This document shows positions 2,043 to 61,661 of a DNA stretch of 64,000 bases, one piece after another. Origin of the DNA: a virus; IMG/VR virus record IMGVR_UViG_3300027973_000056, positions 2,621 through 66,620 of that record, one strand, 5' to 3'. A program made the translations under genes and the position numbers. The notes under the pieces were generated by a model. It was not told where the DNA came from and did no database searches. It was given only the letters and a program-made list of their open reading frames with translations. Position 1 is the first letter of the stretch, and the number at the start of each line of letters is the position of its first letter.

Positions 2043-2088
2043 ATTGATAATAAATACACTTTCAGTTTGGTTTTACGATATTTATTCT

Positions 2089-2096
2089 TATCTTTG
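2089..2096 (+). promoter_or_regulatory. Bacteroidota-type -7 promoter element (TAnnTTTG) for tmRNA
   Basis: TATCTTTG about 20 nt upstream of the tmRNA 5' end, followed by boxA-like GTTCATTGAA. Confidence 0.7.
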
Positions 2097-2116
2097 TATC
2101 AGTTCATTGAAATTAT

Positions 2117-2530
2117 GGGGGTGTCCAGGTATTGATTGCAGTAGTTAGGGTAACCAGGCACGTAGTCAGAATTCATCTATGACTTAAATCTATGGTGAAG
2201 AAAATCAAACGGCAAAACTTTTGCTAAAATGGCTGCTTTAGGTTTAACTAGAGAAGCTGTTGTTGTTGGTGCTTAATTAGTACAGAACAACATTCGGGTC
2301 GATGTACATATAACCTAGGAACAGAAGTACTCAAGGTGTAATACCACCCAAAGATGTATTAGGAGTCTTGTTCAGGGGTCTACTCCAACACAAGTGAACC
2401 CGACACAGTTATTGGTTACGATGTCAAAATAGGAACCATTTATTTGTCAGTTGAGAACTAACTGAATAAACGTGTAGTCTGTTTATGTTAATATTGTAAG
2501 ACGCGGGTTCGATTCCCGCCACCTCCACCA
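2117..2530 (+). ncRNA. ssrA: tmRNA
   Basis: Acceptor GGGGGTG/CACCTCC-A-CCA with G3:U70, T-arm GCGGG-TTCGATT-CCCGC, tag ORF 2211-2276 (GKTFAKMAALGLTREAVVVGA*). Confidence 0.95.
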
Positions 2531-9065: not shown

Positions 9066-9158
9066 TTGTTGTTGGTACAAAGATACTAATTTTATTTTAT
9101 AAAAAAAATCCCCCTGACTTTTAATCAGAGGGATTCAATATTAAATTTAAAAAATATA

Positions 9159-12956: not shown

Positions 12957-12966
12957 ATTTGTTTCA

Positions 12967-12998
12967 CAAAGATACAACCAATATTTCAAAGAGCCAAA
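12967..12998 (-). promoter_or_regulatory. Bacteroidota-type promoter directly upstream of tRNA-Glu
   Basis: TTTG (12998-12995)-N20-TATCTTTG (12974-12967); the spacer contains boxA-like GCTCTTTGAA. Confidence 0.6.
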
Positions 12999-13001
12999 AA
13001 C

Positions 13002-13036
13002 AAAAAACCCTGAACTTCATTTCTGTAGTTCAGGGT
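13002..13036 (-). terminator. attenuator terminator A
   Basis: ACCCTGAACT-N10-AGTTCAGGGT followed by T-tract; 5' arm can alternatively pair with 13097-13088. Confidence 0.8.
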
Positions 13037-13058
13037 ATATAAAAAATTTGGTTTATTT

Positions 13059-13169
13059 TTAGTTTAAAAAATTATTCAAAATTATATCCGAACTACATGA
13101 CTGCATACGCTCATACCAACAAGTTTCTTGTTGTTGACTAAAGACTGTATGTTTTATTGTAGTTCTCAT
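13059..13169 (-). CDS. putative attenuator leader peptide A (36 aa)
   Basis: MRTTIKHTVFSQQQETCWYERMQSCSSDIILNNFLN*; codons match the downstream tRNAs; contains the antiterminator segment. Confidence 0.75.
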   Translation of the reverse strand: MRTTIKHTVFSQQQETCWYERMQSCSSDIILNNFLN

Positions 13170-13187
13170 TGTTTCTAATATATAGTT

Positions 13188-13218
13188 CAAAGATATGAAA
13201 AAATCTTTGAGTGTCAAA
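13188..13218 (-). promoter_or_regulatory. Bacteroidota-type promoter for leader A
   Basis: TTTG (13218-13215)-N19-TATCTTTG (13195-13188), 18 nt before the leader ATG. Confidence 0.7.
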
Positions 13219-13754: not shown

Positions 13755-13816
13755 TACAAAGATACAAAAATATTTTGGTTTACAAAATCTATTGTATTTT
13801 TTTTTTATAAATATTG

Positions 13817-13897
13817 TACCCCAAGTCGGACTCGAACCGACACGACTTACGTCACAAGTTCCTAAAACTTGAGTGTCTACCATTCCACCATCGGGGT
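13817..13897 (-). tRNA. tRNA-Leu(TAG)
   Basis: Loop TTTAGGA, variable arm. Confidence 0.9.
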
Positions 13898-13902
13898 ATA
13901 CA

Positions 13903-13994
13903 TTATCATCGCTCCAGCCACATCGAGGAACACGCCGCCCCCGCGTTGTTTAAGTGTATGAATTGCGCCGTATCTCACTGAGTTACGATGATAA
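13903..13994 (-). ncRNA. candidate structured RNA between tRNA-Arg and tRNA-Leu
   Basis: Closing stem TTATCATCG/CGATGATAA, inner CTTCAGT/GCTGGAG, GC-rich core. Confidence 0.45.
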
Positions 13995-13997
13995 TTG

Positions 13998-14071
13998 TGA
14001 TTCGGAAAGGATTCGAACCTTTGACCCCAAACTTAGAAGGTTTGTGCTCTATCCAGCTGAGCTACCGAACC
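13998..14071 (-). tRNA. tRNA-Arg(TCT)
   Basis: Cloverleaf, loop CTTCTAA. Confidence 0.9.
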
Positions 14072-14279
14072 AAATTTCCCCACCTGAAATCCCAGTGAGT
14101 AGATATTCGCAGTTTTTCGTATTGAAAAACCCAACGCGTCTTACCGCTTAAAAAGTCAAACATACTCGGTGGCGTTGTTACGACCATTCTCCGAGACCCC
14201 CTCTTAAGGCCGTGGTAGGAAACAACCATAACATCTTTAAAGAACGTTACCAAACTTGATGAGTACTTCTAACTCATTG

Positions 14280-14361
14280 TATCAGAGGTGGGACTCGAAC
14301 CCACACGAGCAAAGCTCAACAGATTTTAAGTCTGTCTTGTATACCATTCCAACACTCTGAC
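14280..14361 (-). tRNA. tRNA-Leu(TAA)
   Basis: Loop CTTAAAA, variable arm; TATCTTTG promoter at 14378-14371. Confidence 0.9.
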
Positions 14362-14401
14362 ATTGTTTTACAAAGATAGTGAATATCTTTAATAAAGTCA
14401 T

Positions 14402-16101: not shown

Positions 16102-16334
16102 TATAAAATCTTTTCTTGTCTTCTTCTTGCCATTTCAGCGTCTTTGTACCATCTAATCCAAGTTAAAGACACATCAATTGGTGCTAACACCCAAGCCATA
16201 ACCATAACCATAATAGTATCTAATTCAGGAGACCCACCTGTTGGGTCATCACTATACCTTTTACTAAGGTTTTTAAATAACTGATAGAAACAATATATTA
16301 CACATACAAGGTAATATCCAATAAACATACTCAT
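16101..16334 (-). CDS. small membrane protein
   Basis: ATG 16334; two hydrophobic segments. Confidence 0.6.
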   Translation of the reverse strand: MSMFIGYYLVCVIYCFYQLFKNLSKRYSDDPTGGSPELDTIMVMVMAWVLAPIDVSLTWIRWYKDAEMARRRQEKIL

Positions 16335-16349
16335 AAATAAAAATTTTTG

Positions 16350-16422
16350 AGCCTCCTGTCGGACTCGAACCAACGACCACTTGTTTACAAAACAAGAGCT
16401 CTACCAACTGAGCTAAGGAGGC
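16350..16422 (-). tRNA. tRNA-Thr(TGT)
   Basis: Cloverleaf, loop TTTGTAA. Confidence 0.9.
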
Positions 16423-16425
16423 TTA

Positions 16426-16500
16426 TGGAGCAGATGAGAGGAATCGAACCTCCGTCTCCTACTTGGAAGGAAGGAGTAATGACCATTATACGACATCTGC
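16426..16500 (-). tRNA. tRNA-Gly(TCC)
   Basis: Loop CTTCCAA, encoded CCA. Confidence 0.9.
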
Positions 16501-16556
16501 GTGGAGTGCAGTGGGAGGTACCTTCCCTGTGGTTACTACACATTTTATCCACTTTG

Positions 16557-16629
16557 CGGTCCCGACGGGATTCGAACCCGTATCTCGCACCGTGACAGGG
16601 TGGAATTGTAACCATTCAACCACGGAACC
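16557..16629 (-). tRNA. tRNA-Asp(GTC)
   Basis: Cloverleaf, loop CTGTCAC. Confidence 0.9.
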
Positions 16630-16656
16630 GTGTATGGGGAGTTTCACCCCAAACTT

Positions 16657-17145
16657 TTACTCAACAAAGATATGATTATATTCCAATATTCTTCGTTTTA
16701 ATTTATTAACATATTGTGGGTCCTCGGCATAAACTTTACCGAGTAATGCAAAATATTGTTTTTTTGTCATATCATTACGTGATTTTAACATGTGGTCTTG
16801 CCACAATGAGTAATCATACACGCTATACCCCCAATCTTCGTATTTTGAGTAACCACTTTGGGTTTCCCCAATCTTTGCGGATTCTCTTTTACTTGGAACT
16901 TTCATTCCAAAAAGATTATTAGCTGATTTGAACAACTTTGATGTAAACTCTCCTGATTCTAATATAGCTTGTGCAAACACAATATCAGGAAATTTTATAC
17001 CATACTTAATTATCTGCTCATACAAACTTTCTTTTGAGATACTCTCTTGAGTATTTGATTCAATCTGTACTTGCTTCTCTTGTGCTTTGGTTGCCATTGT
17101 TCCTAACAATAACATCCCAGTCAATAAGAATGTTTTTAACTTCAT
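16657..17145 (-). CDS. GH73/FlgJ-like glucosaminidase with signal peptide
   Basis: AQAILESG, NNLFGMK and YAEDPQY motifs. Confidence 0.85.
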   Translation of the reverse strand: MKLKTFLLTGMLLLGTMATKAQEKQVQIESNTQESISKESLYEQIIKYGIKFPDIVFAQAILESGEFTSKLFKSANNLFGMKVPSKRESAKIGETQSGYSKYEDWGYSVYDYSLWQDHMLKSRNDMTKKQYFALLGKVYAEDPQYVNKLKRRILEYNHIFVE

Positions 17146-17225
17146 TTCTTTCTTTTTGTCTGTTTATGCTTCAGGATTGCTCCATCCACGATACTACAAC
17201 ATTGGAATTTTTCCACCTACCGCAG

Positions 17226-17297
17226 AGGCCCCTGTAGGATTTGAACCTACGACCAGTTGATTAACAGTCAACTGCTCTACCACTGAGCTAAAGGGCC
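17226..17297 (-). tRNA. tRNA-Asn(GTT)
   Basis: Cloverleaf, loop CTGTTAA. Confidence 0.9.
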
Positions 17298-17337
17298 TTA
17301 TAATAATAAATAAAATTTCCAATAAAGGAAACTTTTG

Positions 17338-17411
17338 TCGGGATGGCTGGATTCGAACCAACGGCCTCCACGTCCCAAACGTGGCGCGATACCTGACTAC
17401 GCTACATCCCG
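17338..17411 (-). tRNA. tRNA-Pro(TGG)
   Basis: C1-G72, loop TTTGGGA. Confidence 0.9.
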
Positions 17412-17416
17412 TAAAT

Positions 17417-17447
17417 AAAAAAACCCTGAAGGATAAGTTCAGGGTTT
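17417..17447 (-). terminator. attenuator terminator B
   Basis: AAACCCTGAA-CTTATCC-TTCAGGGTTT then T-tract ending 5 nt before tRNA-Pro; can alternatively pair with 17494-17486. Confidence 0.8.
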
Positions 17448-17468
17448 AAATAATTGGCTATAATATTG

Positions 17469-17567
17469 TTACCAACCACTCGCTTCTGAACTTACGCATA
17501 TAGTGCCCCCATCTCCATTAGGAGTTGTCGGCGTGTCTAAATTTGTATTTGTGTTCATAGTTTTCAT
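17469..17567 (-). CDS. putative attenuator leader peptide B (32 aa)
   Basis: MKTMNTNTNLDTPTTPNGDGGTICVSSEASGW*; 18 of the first 22 codons are T/N/D/P/G, the downstream tRNA set; TATTTAT at 17588-17582. Confidence 0.8.
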   Translation of the reverse strand: MKTMNTNTNLDTPTTPNGDGGTICVSSEASGW

Positions 17568-17622
17568 AGTACAATATTACAATAAATATATTCAAAATCA
17601 AATAAATCCCTATTTTAGTTTT

Positions 17623-18342
17623 TTAAGGTAATGTGTTACTACCTTTCAGGTAAAAGTCACCTACAACTTTTGGTCTTAATTCTGTACCTGAGTACGTACT
17701 ATAAACTCTGTATTCCCCAACAGGAATACGAGTTCCCGTGTAATTTAAAACATAATCAGATAATGTAGAATTAGTATTGAAAGGAGTTCTATATATCATA
17801 TTGGTATGCGCACTAGACATTCTTGATTGTCTCCAATTTGGGTTAGGTGTTGCATTCACAGGAATTAATACCATAATCCACACAAATTGATTATTAACTA
17901 AAGGACCATTAATTTTAACCGTTCCAAAATTATACACACCTGCCGAAGTTTGTGTAATATTTGATTGAATGACTGTAGGTAATGTTCCATTATACCAATA
18001 CGGCATATCAATATAATTTAACAAATCAGTATAATTTGTTGATTTGATTGGTGACCCAGTAAAAAAACCATAAAATGGAGTGTTTGTCGGGGTTTGTGTA
18101 CTACGAGGTCTTGTCTTTAAATAACTCACAATCATATTGAGTTTTGACTGAGGCTCAACAAAAATATAAACCTTTGGTCCAACTGATGAAACAGTCGGAG
18201 ATGTTGACATTGTTCTTAAGTCTTCTCCTTGAGTTGATTCAATTGAAGTTTGTTTAACTGGGTCATACACGTCGTCTTTTGTACAAGATACAAATAATAC
18301 CGATGTTGCGAAAATTGCAAGAAATAATTGTTTTAGTTTCAT
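17623..18342 (-). CDS. lipoprotein of unknown function
   Basis: Signal peptide with FVSC lipobox; TATCTTTG upstream. Confidence 0.75.
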   Translation of the reverse strand: MKLKQLFLAIFATSVLFVSCTKDDVYDPVKQTSIESTQGEDLRTMSTSPTVSSVGPKVYIFVEPQSKLNMIVSYLKTRPRSTQTPTNTPFYGFFTGSPIKSTNYTDLLNYIDMPYWYNGTLPTVIQSNITQTSAGVYNFGTVKINGPLVNNQFVWIMVLIPVNATPNPNWRQSRMSSAHTNMIYRTPFNTNSTLSDYVLNYTGTRIPVGEYRVYSTYSGTELRPKVVGDFYLKGSNTLP

Positions 18343-18411: not shown

Positions 18412-18513
18412 ATGATAGACAATAATATTACGTGTCTTTTGGGAATTAACCAAAAATATGAGAACTCGGGAACGTTGAGATGTGGAAAACCTCGAACCAT
18501 AAACTATTGCTAA
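18412..18513 (+). CDS. 33-aa micropeptide or sRNA
   Basis: TATTTAT at 18400; MIDNNITCLLGINQKYENSGTLRCGKPRTINYC*; terminator 18531-18557. Confidence 0.35.
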   Translation: MIDNNITCLLGINQKYENSGTLRCGKPRTINYC

Positions 18514-18660
18514 ATCATTGGGATATTTTAAAGGGGTCGAAGTTCGTCCCCTTTTTTGTTTTTATCATCCAAATAAACTATGTTTGTAAAAATTGGATAA
18601 AATGTTTAGTAGACTAAATCCAAATATATATAAAAACATTACCGTCTAAACAATTACAGA

Positions 18661-21402
18661 ATGAGAGAAATTAAATCTTTTGATATTTTTGATACTTTAA
18701 TATCAAGAACTGTTGAAAATCCGATTGATATTTTTGACATTGTTGAAAAACAATTCCCGTATAATAATTTTAAAAATTTACGAATTCAGTCACAAAATCA
18801 ATCAAACCACACAATGGATTCAATTTATAATGAATTTAAAAATATCACAAATGAATCTGATGAAACCATAAATAAGTTAAGAGAATTTGAACTAATTACG
18901 GAAATGGAAAATACCATACCAATTTTTAGTAATATTTCAAAAATAAAAGACGGTGATATATTTGTTTCTGATATGTACCTGTCTTCAAATGAAATACGTA
19001 AATTACTTGATTATCATAATATAAATAAAAATACGGAGTTATTTGTTTCATCTGGAGGTAAATCAGATGGTACAATGTGGGAGGCTCTTACACAAACATA
19101 TAAAATTAATTCTCATTATGGTGACAATTATCATTCTGATATAATGATGGCCTCAAGATATGGAATAAAAGGGGTTTACACAGAAGCCTATAAATTCACA
19201 GTTTTAGAATCATATCTTATTCGAAATAATGAATTTGAGTTATGTCAACAAATAAGAAAATTTAGACTTGCAAATCCATATGATGAAAATACTATAGAAT
19301 ACAAAATATACGAACAACAAATTTCTTATAATATACCAATACTATTATTTATTTGTAATAAACTAGATGAAATTTTAATAAATGAAAATCGTAATACTGT
19401 ATTATTTCATTCAAGAGATGGGTGCTTATTAATAAAATTATTTTCTTACTTATACCCACAATATAAATCAATATATTTACATTCTAGCAGAATTATTAAT
19501 AATGATTATACCGATGACTATATTTCATATTTAAAAGAAAATTATGATAAAGATAGTTGTGTTTTATTTGATTTACATGGTTCATTAAACAGTGGGAAAA
19601 AACTTTTTACATCACTTTTTGAACATTTGCCTAGAATATTTATTTTTGACCTTTCTTATATTGAAAATTATATTAGTGAAATAACATATATCACAAATTA
19701 CTCAAGTAAAATAGAGGAGTTTAATCATGATTATAAAGGAACATTAGTTCAATTTATAAAGAATGAAGATATACGTACCCCAACTGAGCATCCTCTAAAA
19801 TATATTGATATAATTCATAGTATTTTTGATTCTTTTATAAAATATTTTGATGTAAATTTGAAAAAAAATCCAATATTGAACAATAATGATTTTTTTAAAA
19901 AATATTATGTAGAAACTGTATGTAAATCTGAAACTATTTTAAAAAACCAATTTGAATTTTTGAATCTTACCAAATTAGCAAACAAATATAACTCAGACAA
20001 AGGAAACCTTTTTTTGTGTGCTCACCATTACTCTATAAAGTACGAACAAATATTCAATGATATATTAAATTTTAAATTAGGAAGAAAAGATTTTTCTACA
20101 TTTGATTTATTAGAAATTGGATTAAATATATCAACCACAGAAGAATCAATCCCATCATTAATGATATGGAATGATTATTTTAATAAAAATATAAATATTA
20201 CAGGATTTGATATAGATAATCGTTTTTCAAAATTAAATATAGACCAAAATATAGATATTAAAATTGGTGACCAATCAAGTGAAAAGGACTTATTACAATT
20301 AAAAAATAAAAACTATGACATGATAATTGATGATGGTTATCATGCGTCAAAACATCAACAAATTACATTTAAAACATTGTGGCAAAACGTAAAACCAGGA
20401 GGATATTTTATTATTGAGGATTTACATTACCAACCAGAGCCAGAAACGTGCATAAAAACAAAAGAGTTATTTGAAAATTGGAAGAGCGATAATTGGATAG
20501 AAACTGAGTATATTAACTCAGATGAAATACAAATCATCAAAAAGGATATTGAAAGTATTGAATTTTATGACTCAAGCTCAAAAAATTGGGGGGATTCCGT
20601 AAAAAACGCGTTTGTGTATATTAAAAAAAAAGAAAGAATGAATATTATAAATGAAAACACTATGAATGAAATTATACAATATGAATTTCCAGTACCATCA
20701 CAGGCGGAAGAAAAATATTATTACACAGATAAATCAGCGATTTTGAATATCAGAAACATTTTAAGTAAAAATGGTAAGTATAATTATTGTGAAATTGGTT
20801 CTTATTTAGGAGGTTCATTAGTCCCCTTTTTAAGAGACCCTCAATGTGAGTATATACTATCAGTTGATGATAGAGGTAATATACAACCAGATGAAAGGGG
20901 TATTAGTTATGATTACAGGCATATTTCAACCCAAACTATGTTAGATACATTATCAAAGCATAGTTTAGATTTAACAAAATTAGAAACATTTGATGGTTCT
21001 GTACATGAATTAAATAAAAACATCAATAAATTTGATTTAGTTTTTATAGATGGTGAACATACCGATTATGCATGTTTTAGAGACTTTATGTATTCTCAAA
21101 AATACCTAAAAGAAAATTCAGTTGTTATGTTTCATGATAGTACTTTAGTATATAAATCATTAAAAATAATACAAGAATATCTGACATGTAATAATATAGT
21201 TCATAAATTTATTAAAATTCCAAATTCATCAGTAACGTTTATTTTTTTTGGTGATTATATTTCTTTGTGTACTGAATTTGAATCAGAAGATGTTGAAATT
21301 TTTTATAATAAGTCAGAAGAAGAGGTTCTTTACCATGTTATACAAAATAGAGTAGAGGGAAGTTTTATTATTAAAAATAAAACATACACAATAGGTGGGT
21401 AA
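18661..21402 (+). CDS. multidomain HAD-like hydrolase with two class I SAM methyltransferase domains
   Basis: SFDIFDTL/HYGDN..SD HAD motifs; LEIG..IIDDGYH..KPGG..IED; YCEIGSYLGGS..FIDGEH..FHD. Confidence 0.75.
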   Translation: MREIKSFDIFDTLISRTVENPIDIFDIVEKQFPYNNFKNLRIQSQNQSNHTMDSIYNEFKNITNESDETINKLREFELITEMENTIPIFSNISKIKDGDIFVSDMYLSSNEIRKLLDYHNINKNTELFVSSGGKSDGTMWEALTQTYKINSHYGDNYHSDIMMASRYGIKGVYTEAYKFTVLESYLIRNNEFELCQQIRKFRLANPYDENTIEYKIYEQQISYNIPILLFICNKLDEILINENRNTVLFHSRDGCLLIKLFSYLYPQYKSIYLHSSRIINNDYTDDYISYLKENYDKDSCVLFDLHGSLNSGKKLFTSLFEHLPRIFIFDLSYIENYISEITYITNYSSKIEEFNHDYKGTLVQFIKNEDIRTPTEHPLKYIDIIHSIFDSFIKYFDVNLKKNPILNNNDFFKKYYVETVCKSETILKNQFEFLNLTKLANKYNSDKGNLFLCAHHYSIKYEQIFNDILNFKLGRKDFSTFDLLEIGLNISTTEESIPSLMIWNDYFNKNINITGFDIDNRFSKLNIDQNIDIKIGDQSSEKDLLQLKNKNYDMIIDDGYHASKHQQITFKTLWQNVKPGGYFIIEDLHYQPEPETCIKTKELFENWKSDNWIETEYINSDEIQIIKKDIESIEFYDSSSKNWGDSVKNAFVYIKKKERMNIINENTMNEIIQYEFPVPSQAEEKYYYTDKSAILNIRNILSKNGKYNYCEIGSYLGGSLVPFLRDPQCEYILSVDDRGNIQPDERGISYDYRHISTQTMLDTLSKHSLDLTKLETFDGSVHELNKNINKFDLVFIDGEHTDYACFRDFMYSQKYLKENSVVMFHDSTLVYKSLKIIQEYLTCNNIVHKFIKIPNSSVTFIFFGDYISLCTEFESEDVEIFYNKSEEEVLYHVIQNRVEGSFIIKNKTYTIGG

Positions 21403-61491: not shown

Positions 61492-61571
61492 TTTTTATAA
61501 AGATAAGAAAGATTTTAATGCCTTCCAAATCTTTTGATGAAAATTCCGAAAATAAATTTCGGGGACTTCCG

Positions 61572-61661
61572 TGGTTGGGATTGGAGTCGAACCAATGGCA
61601 CATTACTTTTCAGATAATTGCTCTACCGTGAATCTTAAAGGATTCCTGAGCTACCACAACC
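61572..61661 (-). tRNA. atypical tRNA-Phe(GAA) with hairpin insertion in the D-loop
   Basis: Loop CTGAAAA, T-arm ATTGG-TTCGACT-CCAAT, GAATC/GATTC insert, bulged acceptor stem; promoter TATCTTTG near 61686-61693. Confidence 0.65.

What the first reader, a model, noticed from the sequence alone, without database searches (positions are those of the whole stretch)
17338..17588. Attenuator B: T/N/D/P/G leader directly gates tRNA-Pro, Asn, Asp, Gly, Thr
Unannotated ORF 17567-17469 encodes MKTMNTNTNLDTPTTPNGDGGTICVSSEASGW. Of the first 22 codons, 18 are Thr (7), Asn (4), Gly (3), Asp (2) or Pro (2), the five tRNAs that follow. TAAGTTCAG (17494-17486) pairs 9/9 with CTGAACTTA (17442-17434), which excludes the terminator hairpin. 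The U-tract ends 5 nt before tRNA-Pro, leaving no room for a separate promoter, so tRNA-Pro should depend on read-through. The upstream element is the phage TATTTAT motif.
Basis: partly seen in the sequence, partly recalled or inferred. Interest (0 to 1): 0.92.

Follow-up and report, generated by a model that had tools for sequence, protein, structure and literature searches.

The report
Leader-peptide switch before phage tRNA genes
A giant freshwater phage puts a tiny test gene, spelled in the amino acids of the tRNA genes that follow it, in front of a switchable transcription stop, so it probably makes those tRNAs only when ribosomes run short of them.

Summary
A 32-codon ORF (17567-17469, minus strand) has 18 of its first 22 codons as Thr/Asn/Gly/Asp/Pro. 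A 10-bp, U7 intrinsic terminator follows and ends 5 nt before tRNA-Pro. A leader segment is complementary to the terminator's 5' arm and loop. Comparison turns this one case into a family. A scan that ignored tRNAs and peptides found 123 such units in uncultured viral contigs. Of these, 120 have the small ORF and 115 have a tRNA within 150 nt. Across 32 non-redundant leaders, the ORF names on average 94% of the amino acids of its own downstream array (67% when arrays are permuted; 0 of 20,000 permutations reach it). The match extends to Arg and Ser isoacceptor codons. The antiterminator helix shows compensatory changes, including a terminator loop base (0 of 500 shuffles). In the window's close relatives, the roster codons change almost only synonymously. 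I read it as a multivalent leader-peptide attenuator feeding tRNA genes (confidence 0.7). Caveats: there are no expression data, equilibrium folding does not discriminate, and most relatives, though not this unit, have a promoter-like box after the terminator. My five searches found no published account. This scan has noted the same kind of element before on other DNA.

The parts
17572..17602 (-). Candidate promoter P1 of the leader: TTTG (17602-17599), a 19-nt spacer, TAATATTG (17579-17572).
   Evidence: Read. A TTTG or TTG at the same 19-20 nt spacing is kept in relatives whose upstream sequence otherwise differs. The exact TTTG-N18-21-TAnnTTTG pattern is enriched in the window, 17 found against 3.65 expected, but this site has one mismatch in the second box. 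No TSS data.
17469..17567 (-). Leader ORF, 32 codons plus stop: MKTMNTNTNLDTPTTPNGDGGTICVSSEASGW.
   Evidence: The ORF is kept in all 8 distinct close-relative sequences. No Pfam match.
17502..17564 (-). Roster codons 2-22. 19 of 21 name amino acids of the downstream tRNAs (Thr, Asn, Gly, Asp, Pro, Leu); the exceptions are Lys2 and Met4.
   Evidence: Across the 8 close variants, 9 of these codons vary: 8 only synonymously, and codon 20 is Gly/Ala.
17486..17495 (-). Segment 2, the 5' strand of the antiterminator: GTAAGTTCAG, with core GTTCAG at 17491-17486, inside codons 25-28.
   Evidence: 10 bp, 1 G-U; 2 of 200 shuffles as good. Family covariation.
17448..17481 (-). Inner hairpin: 5' arm 17481-17471 (last ORF codons and the first base of the stop), 12-nt loop, 3' arm 17458-17448. 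It stacks under the antiterminator helix.
   Evidence: Present in the predicted MFE of the nascent RNA. The outer helix alone is -8.9 kcal/mol; the outer plus inner structure is -20.6 kcal/mol. Predicted only; no covariation was seen.
17433..17442 (-). Segment 3, the partner of segment 2: CTGAACTTAT, made of 5 bases of the terminator's 5' arm plus 5 loop bases.
17417..17447 (-). Intrinsic terminator: AAACCCTGAA / loop CTTATCC / TTCAGGGTTT, with T7 ending at 17417.
   Evidence: The hairpin alone is -12.3 kcal/mol. The stem is paired in 97.8% of cells across 55 family members.
17337..17411 (-). tRNA-Pro (tgg), starting 5 nt after the T-run.
17225..17297 (-). tRNA-Asn (gtt).
16657..17145 (-). 162-aa secreted glucosaminidase-family gene lying inside the array.
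   Evidence: Pfam PF01832, E 3.3e-19.
16349..16629 (-). tRNA-Asp (gtc), tRNA-Gly (tcc), tRNA-Thr (tgt).
13816..14361 (-). tRNA-Leu (taa), tRNA-Arg (tct), tRNA-Leu (tag). These are the last tRNAs before the next leader unit. They have their own TATCTTTG box at 14378-14371.
12957..13218 (-). Sister unit 'A': promoter 13218-13188, leader ORF 13169-13059, terminator 13036-13007, second promoter 12998-12967, then tRNA-Glu.
   Evidence: The leader covers 12 of 12 amino-acid types of its array.

Best explanation
This is a multivalent leader-peptide transcription attenuator placed in front of phage tRNA genes.

Shown:
- A promoter-proximal 32-codon ORF whose codons 2-22 are a roster of the amino acids, and largely the isoacceptor codons, of the tRNAs encoded downstream.
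- An intrinsic terminator 5 nt before tRNA-Pro.
- A leader segment (17495-17486) complementary to the upper half of the terminator's 5' arm plus loop bases. This pairing is kept by compensatory changes across a family of at least 55 distinct units.

Inferred mechanism:
- A ribosome that reads the roster without delay reaches the stop codon 14 nt past segment 2. There it melts the inner hairpin (17481-17448) and crowds segment 2. The terminator then folds and transcription ends at about 17417.
- If any roster codon is decoded slowly because its tRNA is scarce or uncharged, the ribosome stalls upstream of codon ~20.
- Segment 2 then pairs with 17442-17433 as soon as that stretch is made, the terminator cannot nucleate, and RNA polymerase runs into tRNA-Pro and tRNA-Asn and on through the array.

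The result would be negative feedback: the phage tops up exactly those tRNAs whose codons are being read slowly.
For: 1. Anatomy in the window.

2. Family. A viral-contig scan for 'GTTCRG, spacer, terminator' did not use tRNAs or peptides. It gave 123 unit instances: 120 of 123 have a 24-40 aa ORF spanning segment 2 and stopping before the terminator (the 3 misses are at locus edges), 115 of 123 have a tRNA start within 150 nt, and 123 of 123 have a same-strand tRNA downstream. The same pattern in bacterial genome contigs gave 16 hits. Only 1 has the ORF and an array; of the other 15, 14 have no downstream same-strand tRNA in the fetched DNA and 1 has its nearest about 3 kb away. That one reads MRNLSLHSLSYLYLHSVGSGDILM before His-Ser-Ser-Tyr-Leu-Leu-Leu.

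3. Roster match. For 32 cluster representatives, chosen from 63 distinct peptides (51 with enough downstream DNA), leaders cover on average 0.94 of their own array's amino-acid types against 0.67 for permuted arrays. The fraction of leader residues found in the array is 0.74 against 0.51. In both cases 0 of 20,000 permutations reach the observed value. 23 of 32 leaders have full coverage. Permuting only within the two leader classes still gives 0 of 20,000.

4. Codon level. 498 of 567 codons are decodable by the array's own anticodons, against 472.5 +/- 7.1 after synonymous resampling (p 0.0006). AGR codons accompany tRNA-Arg(tct) in 11 of 13 arrays with it against 6 of 19 without. CGN accompanies Arg(acg) in 11 of 12 against 4 of 20. 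AGY accompanies Ser(gct) in 10 of 10 against 6 of 22.

5. Antiterminator covariation on 55 distinct sequences. 97.4% of 385 cells pair, 45 cells are changed on both sides (0 of 500 shuffles reach this), and slid controls pair at 53.5% or less. The base before GTTC pairs with the base after GAAC as AU 17, GC 16, UA 10, GU 2 and other 10. The R:Y core pair has no A-C mismatch (AU 33, GC 18, GU 4). In the 67-unit set, the terminator's own 3' arm pairs that base in only 25 of 67 units.

6. Segment 2 is read in all three frames (56, 6 and 5 units), so the RNA, not the peptide, is what is kept.

7. Close relatives (8 distinct ORFs). Of the variable codons among codons 2-22, 8 of 9 are purely synonymous; the expected synonymous share is 45 of 189. 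All 9 variable codons in 23-32 change the residue.

8. Folding. With a ribosome at codons 13-20, the nascent RNA folds into the antiterminator at -20.6 kcal/mol, against -12.3 for the terminator. With the ribosome at the stop codon, the MFE holds the terminator. In all 75 of 75 family units, the nascent MFE pairs at least 5 bases of the 5' arm upstream (mean 7.8 against 4.9 when shuffled).
Against: - There are no transcription start, 3'-end or ribosome data. The RNA libraries available were contigs only.
- Equilibrium folding does not discriminate. With everything behind a stalled ribosome masked, the terminator is still the MFE in 72-75 of 78 units, including this one. Only 17 of 75 units (arm sequestration) and 29 of 75 (energy) beat shuffles individually at p<=0.05.
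- The pairing covers only half of the terminator stem. The 9/9 match is not conserved: relatives keep 7 or 6 bp, and the loop changes in them are not compensated.
- I found no strong '1:2' pairing in this leader, so an untranslated leader would read through.
- In most family members a conserved box (TAnnTTTG and/or GTTCTTTGAMATATTGG) lies between the terminator and the first tRNA. The sister unit A in this window also has a full promoter there. The arrays are therefore not generally dependent on read-through.
- Terminators of the same sequence type also follow ordinary genes ahead of tRNAs.
- T/P/N/G-rich stretches occur in a real linker of this phage.
- Leaders often hold amino acids that the array lacks (56 and 51 'leader+/array-' cells). 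Ala20, for example, is present in L189 and L225, whose arrays have no tRNA-Ala.
- The scan pattern fixed five of the seven helix pairs. The units are related, so shuffle counts overstate independence.
Confidence: 0.7

Rival explanations
1. The roster ORF does sense decoding of the array's codons, but its output is not termination control of the tRNA genes. Stalling might, for example, change the stability or processing of the leader or tRNA precursor, or set the level of a terminated leader RNA that acts elsewhere. The arrays would be driven mainly by their own promoters.
For: Most family members carry a conserved TAnnTTTG and/or GTTCTTTGAMATATTGG element between the terminator and the first tRNA. 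Unit A in this window has a full TTTG-N20-TATCTTTG promoter there. Equilibrium folding favours the terminator in nearly all conditions.
Against: In this unit and its close clade the terminator abuts tRNA-Pro with no promoter-like box (8 nt after the pattern end). The conserved, covarying pairing is precisely between the leader and the terminator's 5' arm, which is the signature of termination control.
Confidence: 0.15
2. An ordinary small gene or spacer with a plain terminator that also ends the upstream lipoprotein gene's transcript. On this reading, tRNA-Pro and tRNA-Asn are made by constitutive leak-through, and the T/N/D/P/G bias is a low-complexity, linker-like coincidence.
For: The upstream 239-aa gene has its own TATCTTTG box (18365-18358) and no other terminator before 17447. 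One RNA-library contig of a relative runs from that gene through the leader and terminator to tRNA-Asp (X17 record 16, 1497 nt). PT-rich linkers in this phage reach the same composition. The same terminator type follows ordinary genes.
Against: Chance cannot explain leaders that track different arrays across 32 non-redundant units (0 of 20,000 permutations). Examples are an L/R-rich leader before Arg-Leu-Leu in L167 and an H/S/Y/L leader before His-Ser-Ser-Tyr-Leu-Leu-Leu in L233. Nor can chance explain the synonymous-only change in the roster or the compensatory changes with a terminator loop base.
Confidence: 0.08
3. The small ORF encodes a functional peptide (for instance a secreted or modified peptide with a Cys/Ser-rich tail), and its conservation reflects peptide function.
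For: Codons 2-22 are under purifying selection at the amino-acid level. Many family members share a C-x-S-S-[DE] tail.
Against: The tail varies freely in close relatives; all 9 variable codons in 23-32 change the residue. The conserved GTTCRG is read in three different frames. There is no Pfam family. Peptide composition follows the tRNA array rather than any fixed motif.
Confidence: 0.05

Closest known systems
Multivalent leader-peptide attenuators of amino-acid operons (thr leader: Thr+Ile; ilvGMEDA leader: Ile/Leu/Val; also trp, his, leu, pheA). Recalled from textbook knowledge, not from a call.
   Same: A short translated leader rich in the codons of the regulated product, an intrinsic terminator, and a leader segment that competes for the terminator's 5' arm. 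The position of the ribosome would decide between the two folds.
   Different: The regulated genes are tRNA genes, not biosynthetic enzymes. The roster holds up to 13 or more amino-acid types, often one codon each, and tracks isoacceptor anticodons. It is carried by a phage. This unit has no evident 1:2 'pause' pairing. No Rfam leader family matches.
pheST (phenylalanyl-tRNA synthetase) leader-peptide attenuator of E. coli. Recalled, not from a call.
   Same: Leader-peptide attenuation applied to a gene of the translation apparatus, sensing the supply of charged tRNA.
   Different: It controls a synthetase and one amino acid, whereas here the tRNAs themselves and many codons are involved.
T-box riboswitches. 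Recalled; no T-box match.
   Same: A terminator/antiterminator switch in a leader that reports on the state of specific tRNAs.
   Different: A T-box binds uncharged tRNA directly, needs no translation and controls synthetase or amino-acid genes. Here an ORF is conserved and evolves synonymously.
Anabaena PCC 7120 trn operon, a long tRNA array induced under translational stress. For PMC8421152 I read passages by term search. For PMC10272220 I read the abstract.
   Same: An accessory tRNA array that is switched on when translation is impaired.
   Different: Control there is at the promoter, by direct repeats and the RHH repressor TrcR. The words 'leader peptide', 'attenuat' and 'terminator' occur 0 times in PMC8421152. 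It is bacterial, not phage.

Membership tests
Leader-peptide transcription attenuator | A short ORF with its own start, upstream of and on the same strand as the regulated genes. | tested here: met
   32-codon ORF at 17567-17469. 120 of 123 family units have such an ORF.
Leader-peptide transcription attenuator | The leader is enriched in codons cognate to the regulated product. | tested here: met
   18 of 22 codons are T/N/G/D/P. Family coverage is 0.94 against 0.67 permuted, 0 of 20,000. The codon-level match has p 0.0006.
Leader-peptide transcription attenuator | An intrinsic terminator between the leader ORF and the regulated genes. | tested here: met
   17447-17421 plus T7. The stem is paired in 97.8% of cells across 55 units.
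Leader-peptide transcription attenuator | An alternative antiterminator pairing that overlaps the terminator and is maintained in evolution. | tested here: met
   A 7-pair helix, 97.4% paired, 45 cells changed on both sides, 0 of 500 shuffles, slid controls at 53.5% or less. Caveat: the search pattern fixed five of the pairs.
Leader-peptide transcription attenuator | Geometry in which a stalled ribosome frees the antiterminator and a ribosome at the stop codon blocks it. | tested here: inconclusive
   Segment 2 ends 14 nt before the stop codon. Masked folds of this unit behave as expected when 5' bases are left free, but not when they are masked.
Leader-peptide transcription attenuator | The leader is translated. 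| tested here: inconclusive
   Indirect only. Of the variable codons among codons 2-22, 8 of 9 change synonymously, against an expected share of 45 of 189. No ribosome profiling or peptide data.
Leader-peptide transcription attenuator | Read-through rises when the cognate charged tRNA is limiting. | not testable with these tools
   Needs in vitro or in vivo assays. The RNA runs were contigs only.
T-box riboswitch | Specifier loop, T-box sequence and stem I fold matching Rfam RF00230. | tested here: not met
   No match at gathering score over the window and none at E<=1 in 17400-17640. The accession number is recalled.

The most novel reading that the evidence does not exclude
These units are a phage-borne sensor of tRNA depletion. 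Each array would be switched on when any one of the tRNAs it encodes becomes limiting in the infected cell, whether through host anticodon nucleases or other tRNA-targeting defences, host shut-off, or codon-usage mismatch. A jumbo-phage lineage of freshwater Bacteroidota would then deploy replacement tRNAs on demand, array by array.
Probability: 0.35. Interest if true: 0.92.

Novelty: new variant of a known kind. Interest (0 to 1): 0.85.

Why it matters
Phage tRNA genes are usually discussed as constitutive codon-usage aids or as replacements for tRNAs cut by host defences. How their expression is controlled is largely unknown. A leader ORF that lists the array's own codons would be a direct feedback sensor of decoding speed for many tRNAs at once. 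It would extend classical attenuation from amino-acid supply to tRNA supply.

It would also give a testable handle on when phages need their tRNAs. And it would provide a compact, programmable 'codon roster' switch: the family shows rosters rewritten to fit different arrays.

Tried and rejected
- Cultured-phage search (blastn distant). 1116 records matched, but only through tRNA genes. The best place covers 7% of the query and 0 records cover 80% or more, so there is no cultured relative of the unit.
- A generic palindromic terminator pattern returned 118+ mostly unrelated loci. It yielded L074, L113 and L117 only by luck.
- RNA evidence. All four RNA runs were Logan contigs. The window's own strain (X15) has contigs over 16165-17192 and 17987-18342 but none over the leader. 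Absence of cover means nothing. X17 holds one 1497-nt contig of a relative that bridges upstream gene, leader, terminator, tRNA-Pro and on to tRNA-Asp. DNA in the library cannot be excluded, so it shows neither read-through nor its regulation.
- Equilibrium MFE with ribosome masks did not separate the stalled and stop states. I keep it as evidence against, not for.
- Gly/Ala at codon 20 against tRNA-Ala looked like neat covariation. The window and L006 have Gly and no tRNA-Ala. L003/L132, L117, L134 and L131/L133 have Ala and tRNA-Ala. But L189 and L225 have Ala20 without tRNA-Ala, and L074 is truncated. What remains is the weaker rule 'array has it, so the leader has it' (0 of 7 exceptions for Ala).
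- The TATCTTTG at 16672-16665 as an internal promoter for Asp-Gly-Thr. It lies in the last codons of the glucosaminidase gene and is kept in only 2 of 7 distinct relatives. Undecided.
- Rfam gave nothing; the weak hits are far below gathering score.
- Rows dropped. One search left out 4 of 71 distinct units: L168, L182 and L020 had no match to the segment-2 regex, and one L223 unit has a different terminator. Searches left out C-terminal fragments of longer proteins (peptides starting MIEK, MTIEL, MVTLN). One search used 51 of 63 peptides (those with enough downstream DNA) and 32 representatives at 70% identity. One search aligned 55 sequences, chosen from the 67 by dropping near-duplicates by eye, plus the window's two units.
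- Literature. Five searches found no account of leader-peptide attenuation of tRNA genes. I saw search listings only, except PMC8421152 (passages) and PMC10272220 (abstract). Subscription journals and supplementary files were not searched.
Full report
**Setting.** The window is bases 2621-66620 of a 66.6-kb uncultured virus record estimated at 22% complete, so it is a fragment of a jumbo phage. It carries 23 ARAGORN tRNA calls (22 confirmed by Rfam) and a tmRNA. The Bacteroidota-type promoter pattern TTTG-N18-21-TAnnTTTG is enriched, with 17 found against 3.65 expected and 0 of 100 shuffles reaching 17. DNA runs that hold the stretch are freshwater metagenomes.

**The observation.**
- On the minus strand, ORF 17567-17469 encodes MKTMNTNTNLDTPTTPNGDGGTICVSSEASGW. 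I counted 7 Thr, 4 Asn, 3 Gly, 2 Asp and 2 Pro in the first 22 codons.
- Among 626 ORFs of at least 25 aa it is the only one at 18 of 22; the next best has 11. A PT-rich linker in a 699-aa protein reaches the same density in sliding windows.
- The terminator at 17447-17421 has 10 pairs, a 7-nt loop and T7. tRNA-Pro begins at 17411, 5 nt after the T-run.
- After the terminator come tRNA-Pro and tRNA-Asn, then a glucosaminidase-family gene. tRNA-Asp, Gly and Thr follow, then three more genes, and finally tRNA-Leu(taa), Arg(tct) and Leu(tag).
- With Leu counted, 19 of 21 roster codons name a downstream tRNA's amino acid (binomial 2.5e-6).

**A sister unit.** Earlier notes on this window pointed to a second unit at 13218-12957, which I read. 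Its leader is MRTTIKHTVFSQQQETCWYERMQSCSSD... It contains all 12 amino-acid types of the array behind it: Glu, Val, Phe, Cys, Trp, Tyr, Met, Gln, Arg, His, Ile and Ser. A random 26-mer of this phage's composition does so in 0.04% of trials. Only these two places in the window hold the terminator core, where 0 are expected.

**Relatives.** Neighbouring proteins and non-coding patterns brought in close relatives.
- Eight distinct sequences of this ORF exist. In codons 2-22, nine codons vary. Eight vary only synonymously, including TTA to CTT for Leu, and codon 20 is Gly or Ala.
- In codons 23-32, all nine variable codons change the residue. A random change in codons 2-22 is synonymous in 45 of 189 cases.
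- So the identity of the roster residues is under selection, and the peptide's tail is not.

**A family found blind.** I scanned viral contigs for GTTCRG, 35-62 nt, CCCYGAAC, a loop, and TTCRGGGTTTTT. This pattern says nothing about ORFs or tRNAs.
- It gave 123 unit instances. 120 have a 24-40 aa ORF that spans GTTCRG and stops before the terminator; the 3 failures sit at locus ends.
- 115 have a tRNA start within 150 nt, and all 123 have a same-strand tRNA downstream. There are 56 distinct peptides.
- As a control, the same pattern in 596 Gb of bacterial genomes gave 16 hits. Of these, 14 have no downstream same-strand tRNA in the fetched DNA and 1 has its nearest about 3 kb away.
- The remaining hit (L233) is on a 375-kb contig binned as Bacteroidota. 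It reads MRNLSLHSLSYLYLHSVGSGDILM before His, Ser, Ser, Tyr, Leu, Leu, Leu.
- A hairpin-based search added units with variant terminators, bringing the total to 63 peptides.

**Roster test.** For each leader I took the residues from codon 2 to the codon before segment 2. I took the tRNAs up to the next leader or the end of the locus.
- With 32 representatives (70% identity clusters of the 51 peptides that have enough downstream DNA), leaders cover 0.94 of their array's amino-acid types against 0.67 +/- 0.04 when arrays are permuted.
- 0.74 of leader residues are in the array against 0.51 +/- 0.04. No permutation of 20,000 reaches either value. 23 of 32 leaders cover their array completely.
- Permuting only within the two broad leader classes still gives 0 of 20,000.
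- The asymmetry is telling. An array tRNA whose amino acid is missing from the leader is rare, 12 of 127 and 15 of 113 array-positive cells. Leader residues without a tRNA are commoner.
- Examples:
  - L153 type: MKNMNLHIAVIKPMAVCQWYPRAV... before Pro, Pro, Lys, Cys, Trp, Leu, Val, Tyr, Ala, Gln, Met, His, Arg, Ile.
  - L167: three leaders, one of them Leu/Arg-rich, before Arg(tct), Leu(tag), Leu(aag).
- At codon level, 498 of 567 in-array codons are read by the array's own anticodons under strict wobble, against 472.5 +/- 7.1 after synonymous resampling (p 0.0006). The Arg and Ser codon boxes follow the isoacceptor present.

**The RNA switch.** I aligned 55 distinct units from segment 2 to the terminator and counted pairs.
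- The seven-pair helix between the leader and the terminator's 5' arm is paired in 97.4% of 385 cells. It has 45 cells changed on both sides (shuffles: 15.9 +/- 3.4; 0 of 500 reach 45). Its covariation score is 0.275 against 0.118. Sliding the partner gives at most 53.5% pairing.
- Two pairs carry the signal. The R:Y pair inside the core is AU 33, GC 18, GU 4 and never A-C, although the search pattern allowed A-C.
- The pair between the base before GTTC and the base after GAAC is AU 17, GC 16, UA 10, GU 2 and other 10. The pattern did not constrain this pair.
- In most units that terminator base is a loop base: the 3' arm pairs it in only 25 of 67 units.
- Segment 2 is read in all three frames (56, 6 and 5 units).
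- The terminator stem itself is 97.8% paired with no double changes.
- The units are related and five pairs were fixed by the pattern, so the shuffle counts are not probabilities.

**Folding of this unit.**
- The MFE of the 159-nt leader contains the antiterminator stacked on an inner hairpin (17481-17448). That hairpin is made of the last ORF codons and the conserved AGCCAATTAT box.
- With a ribosome at codons 13-20, the nascent RNA folds this way at -20.6 kcal/mol. The outer helix alone is -8.9 and the terminator is -12.3. With the ribosome on the stop codon, the full-length MFE holds the terminator.
- This fits a kinetic switch, but it is fragile. When all bases behind the ribosome are masked, the terminator is the MFE in 72-75 of 78 units, this one included.
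- In nascent folds, all 75 units sequester at least 5 bases of the 5' arm (mean 7.8 against 4.9 shuffled; -18.4 against -13.8 kcal/mol). Only 17 units (arm sequestration) and 29 (energy) are individually beyond shuffles.

**What limits the claim.**
- Most family members have a TAnnTTTG box and/or the conserved GTTCTTTGAMATATTGG between the terminator and the first tRNA. Unit A here has a full promoter in that place.
- TATCTTTG boxes precede tRNA-Leu, tRNA-Glu and tRNA-Ile. The arrays are therefore not in general dependent on read-through, and the attenuator would add to a basal supply.
- This unit and its close clade are the exception: 8 nt separate the pattern end from tRNA-Pro, with no such box.
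- Terminators of the same type also follow ordinary genes.
- RNA data were contigs only. One contig of a relative crosses the terminator, but DNA carry-over cannot be excluded.

**Comparison with known systems.**
- The logic is that of leader-peptide attenuation (trp, his, thr, ilv, pheST; recalled). It differs in the target (tRNA genes), in a roster of many codons, and in its phage carrier.
- No Rfam family matches.
- The nearest published parallel I could read is the Anabaena trn array. It is induced under translational stress, but through promoter repeats and the TrcR repressor.
- Five full-text searches found no report of attenuation of tRNA genes.
- This scan's own earlier notes describe the same kind of element in other phage genomes. 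They are unchecked AI notes, and I count them as leads only.

**Verdict.** The mechanism is inferred, not shown. Confidence is 0.7 that this is a translation-sensing attenuator feeding tRNA-Pro and tRNA-Asn and the array beyond.

Noticed in passing
window 18412-18550 (+): A second conserved small ORF (MIDNNITCLLGINQKYENSGTLRCGKPRTINYC) with its own terminator (18533-18550). Both are kept in at least 12 related loci. It lies upstream of a 913-aa protein with methyltransferase domains (18661-21402). It might be another leader or a small protein.
   Followed up: no
window 12979-12993 (-); many related loci: A conserved motif, GTTCTTTGAMATATTGG, lies between the terminator and the first tRNA in most family members. 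In this window it is found (1 mismatch) only before tRNA-Glu. Its role is unknown; it could be a second promoter, a processing site or a binding site.
   Followed up: partly
window 14371-14378, 12967-12974, 9078-9085 (-): TATCTTTG boxes 10-13 nt upstream of tRNA-Leu(taa), tRNA-Glu and tRNA-Ile. They look like promoters for each sub-array.
   Followed up: partly
L167 (three units); L233:4496-4581: Further leader types. L167 has a Leu/Arg-rich leader before Arg(tct)-Leu(tag)-Leu(aag). L233, a 375-kb contig binned as a Bacteroidota MAG, has a His/Ser/Tyr/Leu leader before His-Ser-Ser-Tyr-Leu-Leu-Leu.
   Followed up: partly
window 61571-61661 (-): ARAGORN calls a 'tRNA-SeC' here, but the Rfam tRNA model does not report it at gathering score. 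A full TTTG-N-TATCTTTG promoter sits just upstream at 61717-61686.
   Followed up: no
window 2066-2530 (+): A phage-encoded tmRNA (93.9 bits) with a Bacteroidota-type promoter at 2066-2096.
   Followed up: no
L140, L141, L132 (unit A copies): In some relatives about 80 extra bases lie between the post-terminator box and tRNA-Glu, so the tRNA starts 140 nt after the terminator instead of 60. Their nature is unknown.
   Followed up: no
L006:3100-3330: In one relative the leader and terminator are nearly identical to the window's. But tRNA-Pro and tRNA-Asn have been replaced by different, longer genes (77 and 86 nt by ARAGORN), and an HNH-like ORF has been inserted. This looks like a recombination joint right at the first bases of the old tRNA-Pro.
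   Followed up: no
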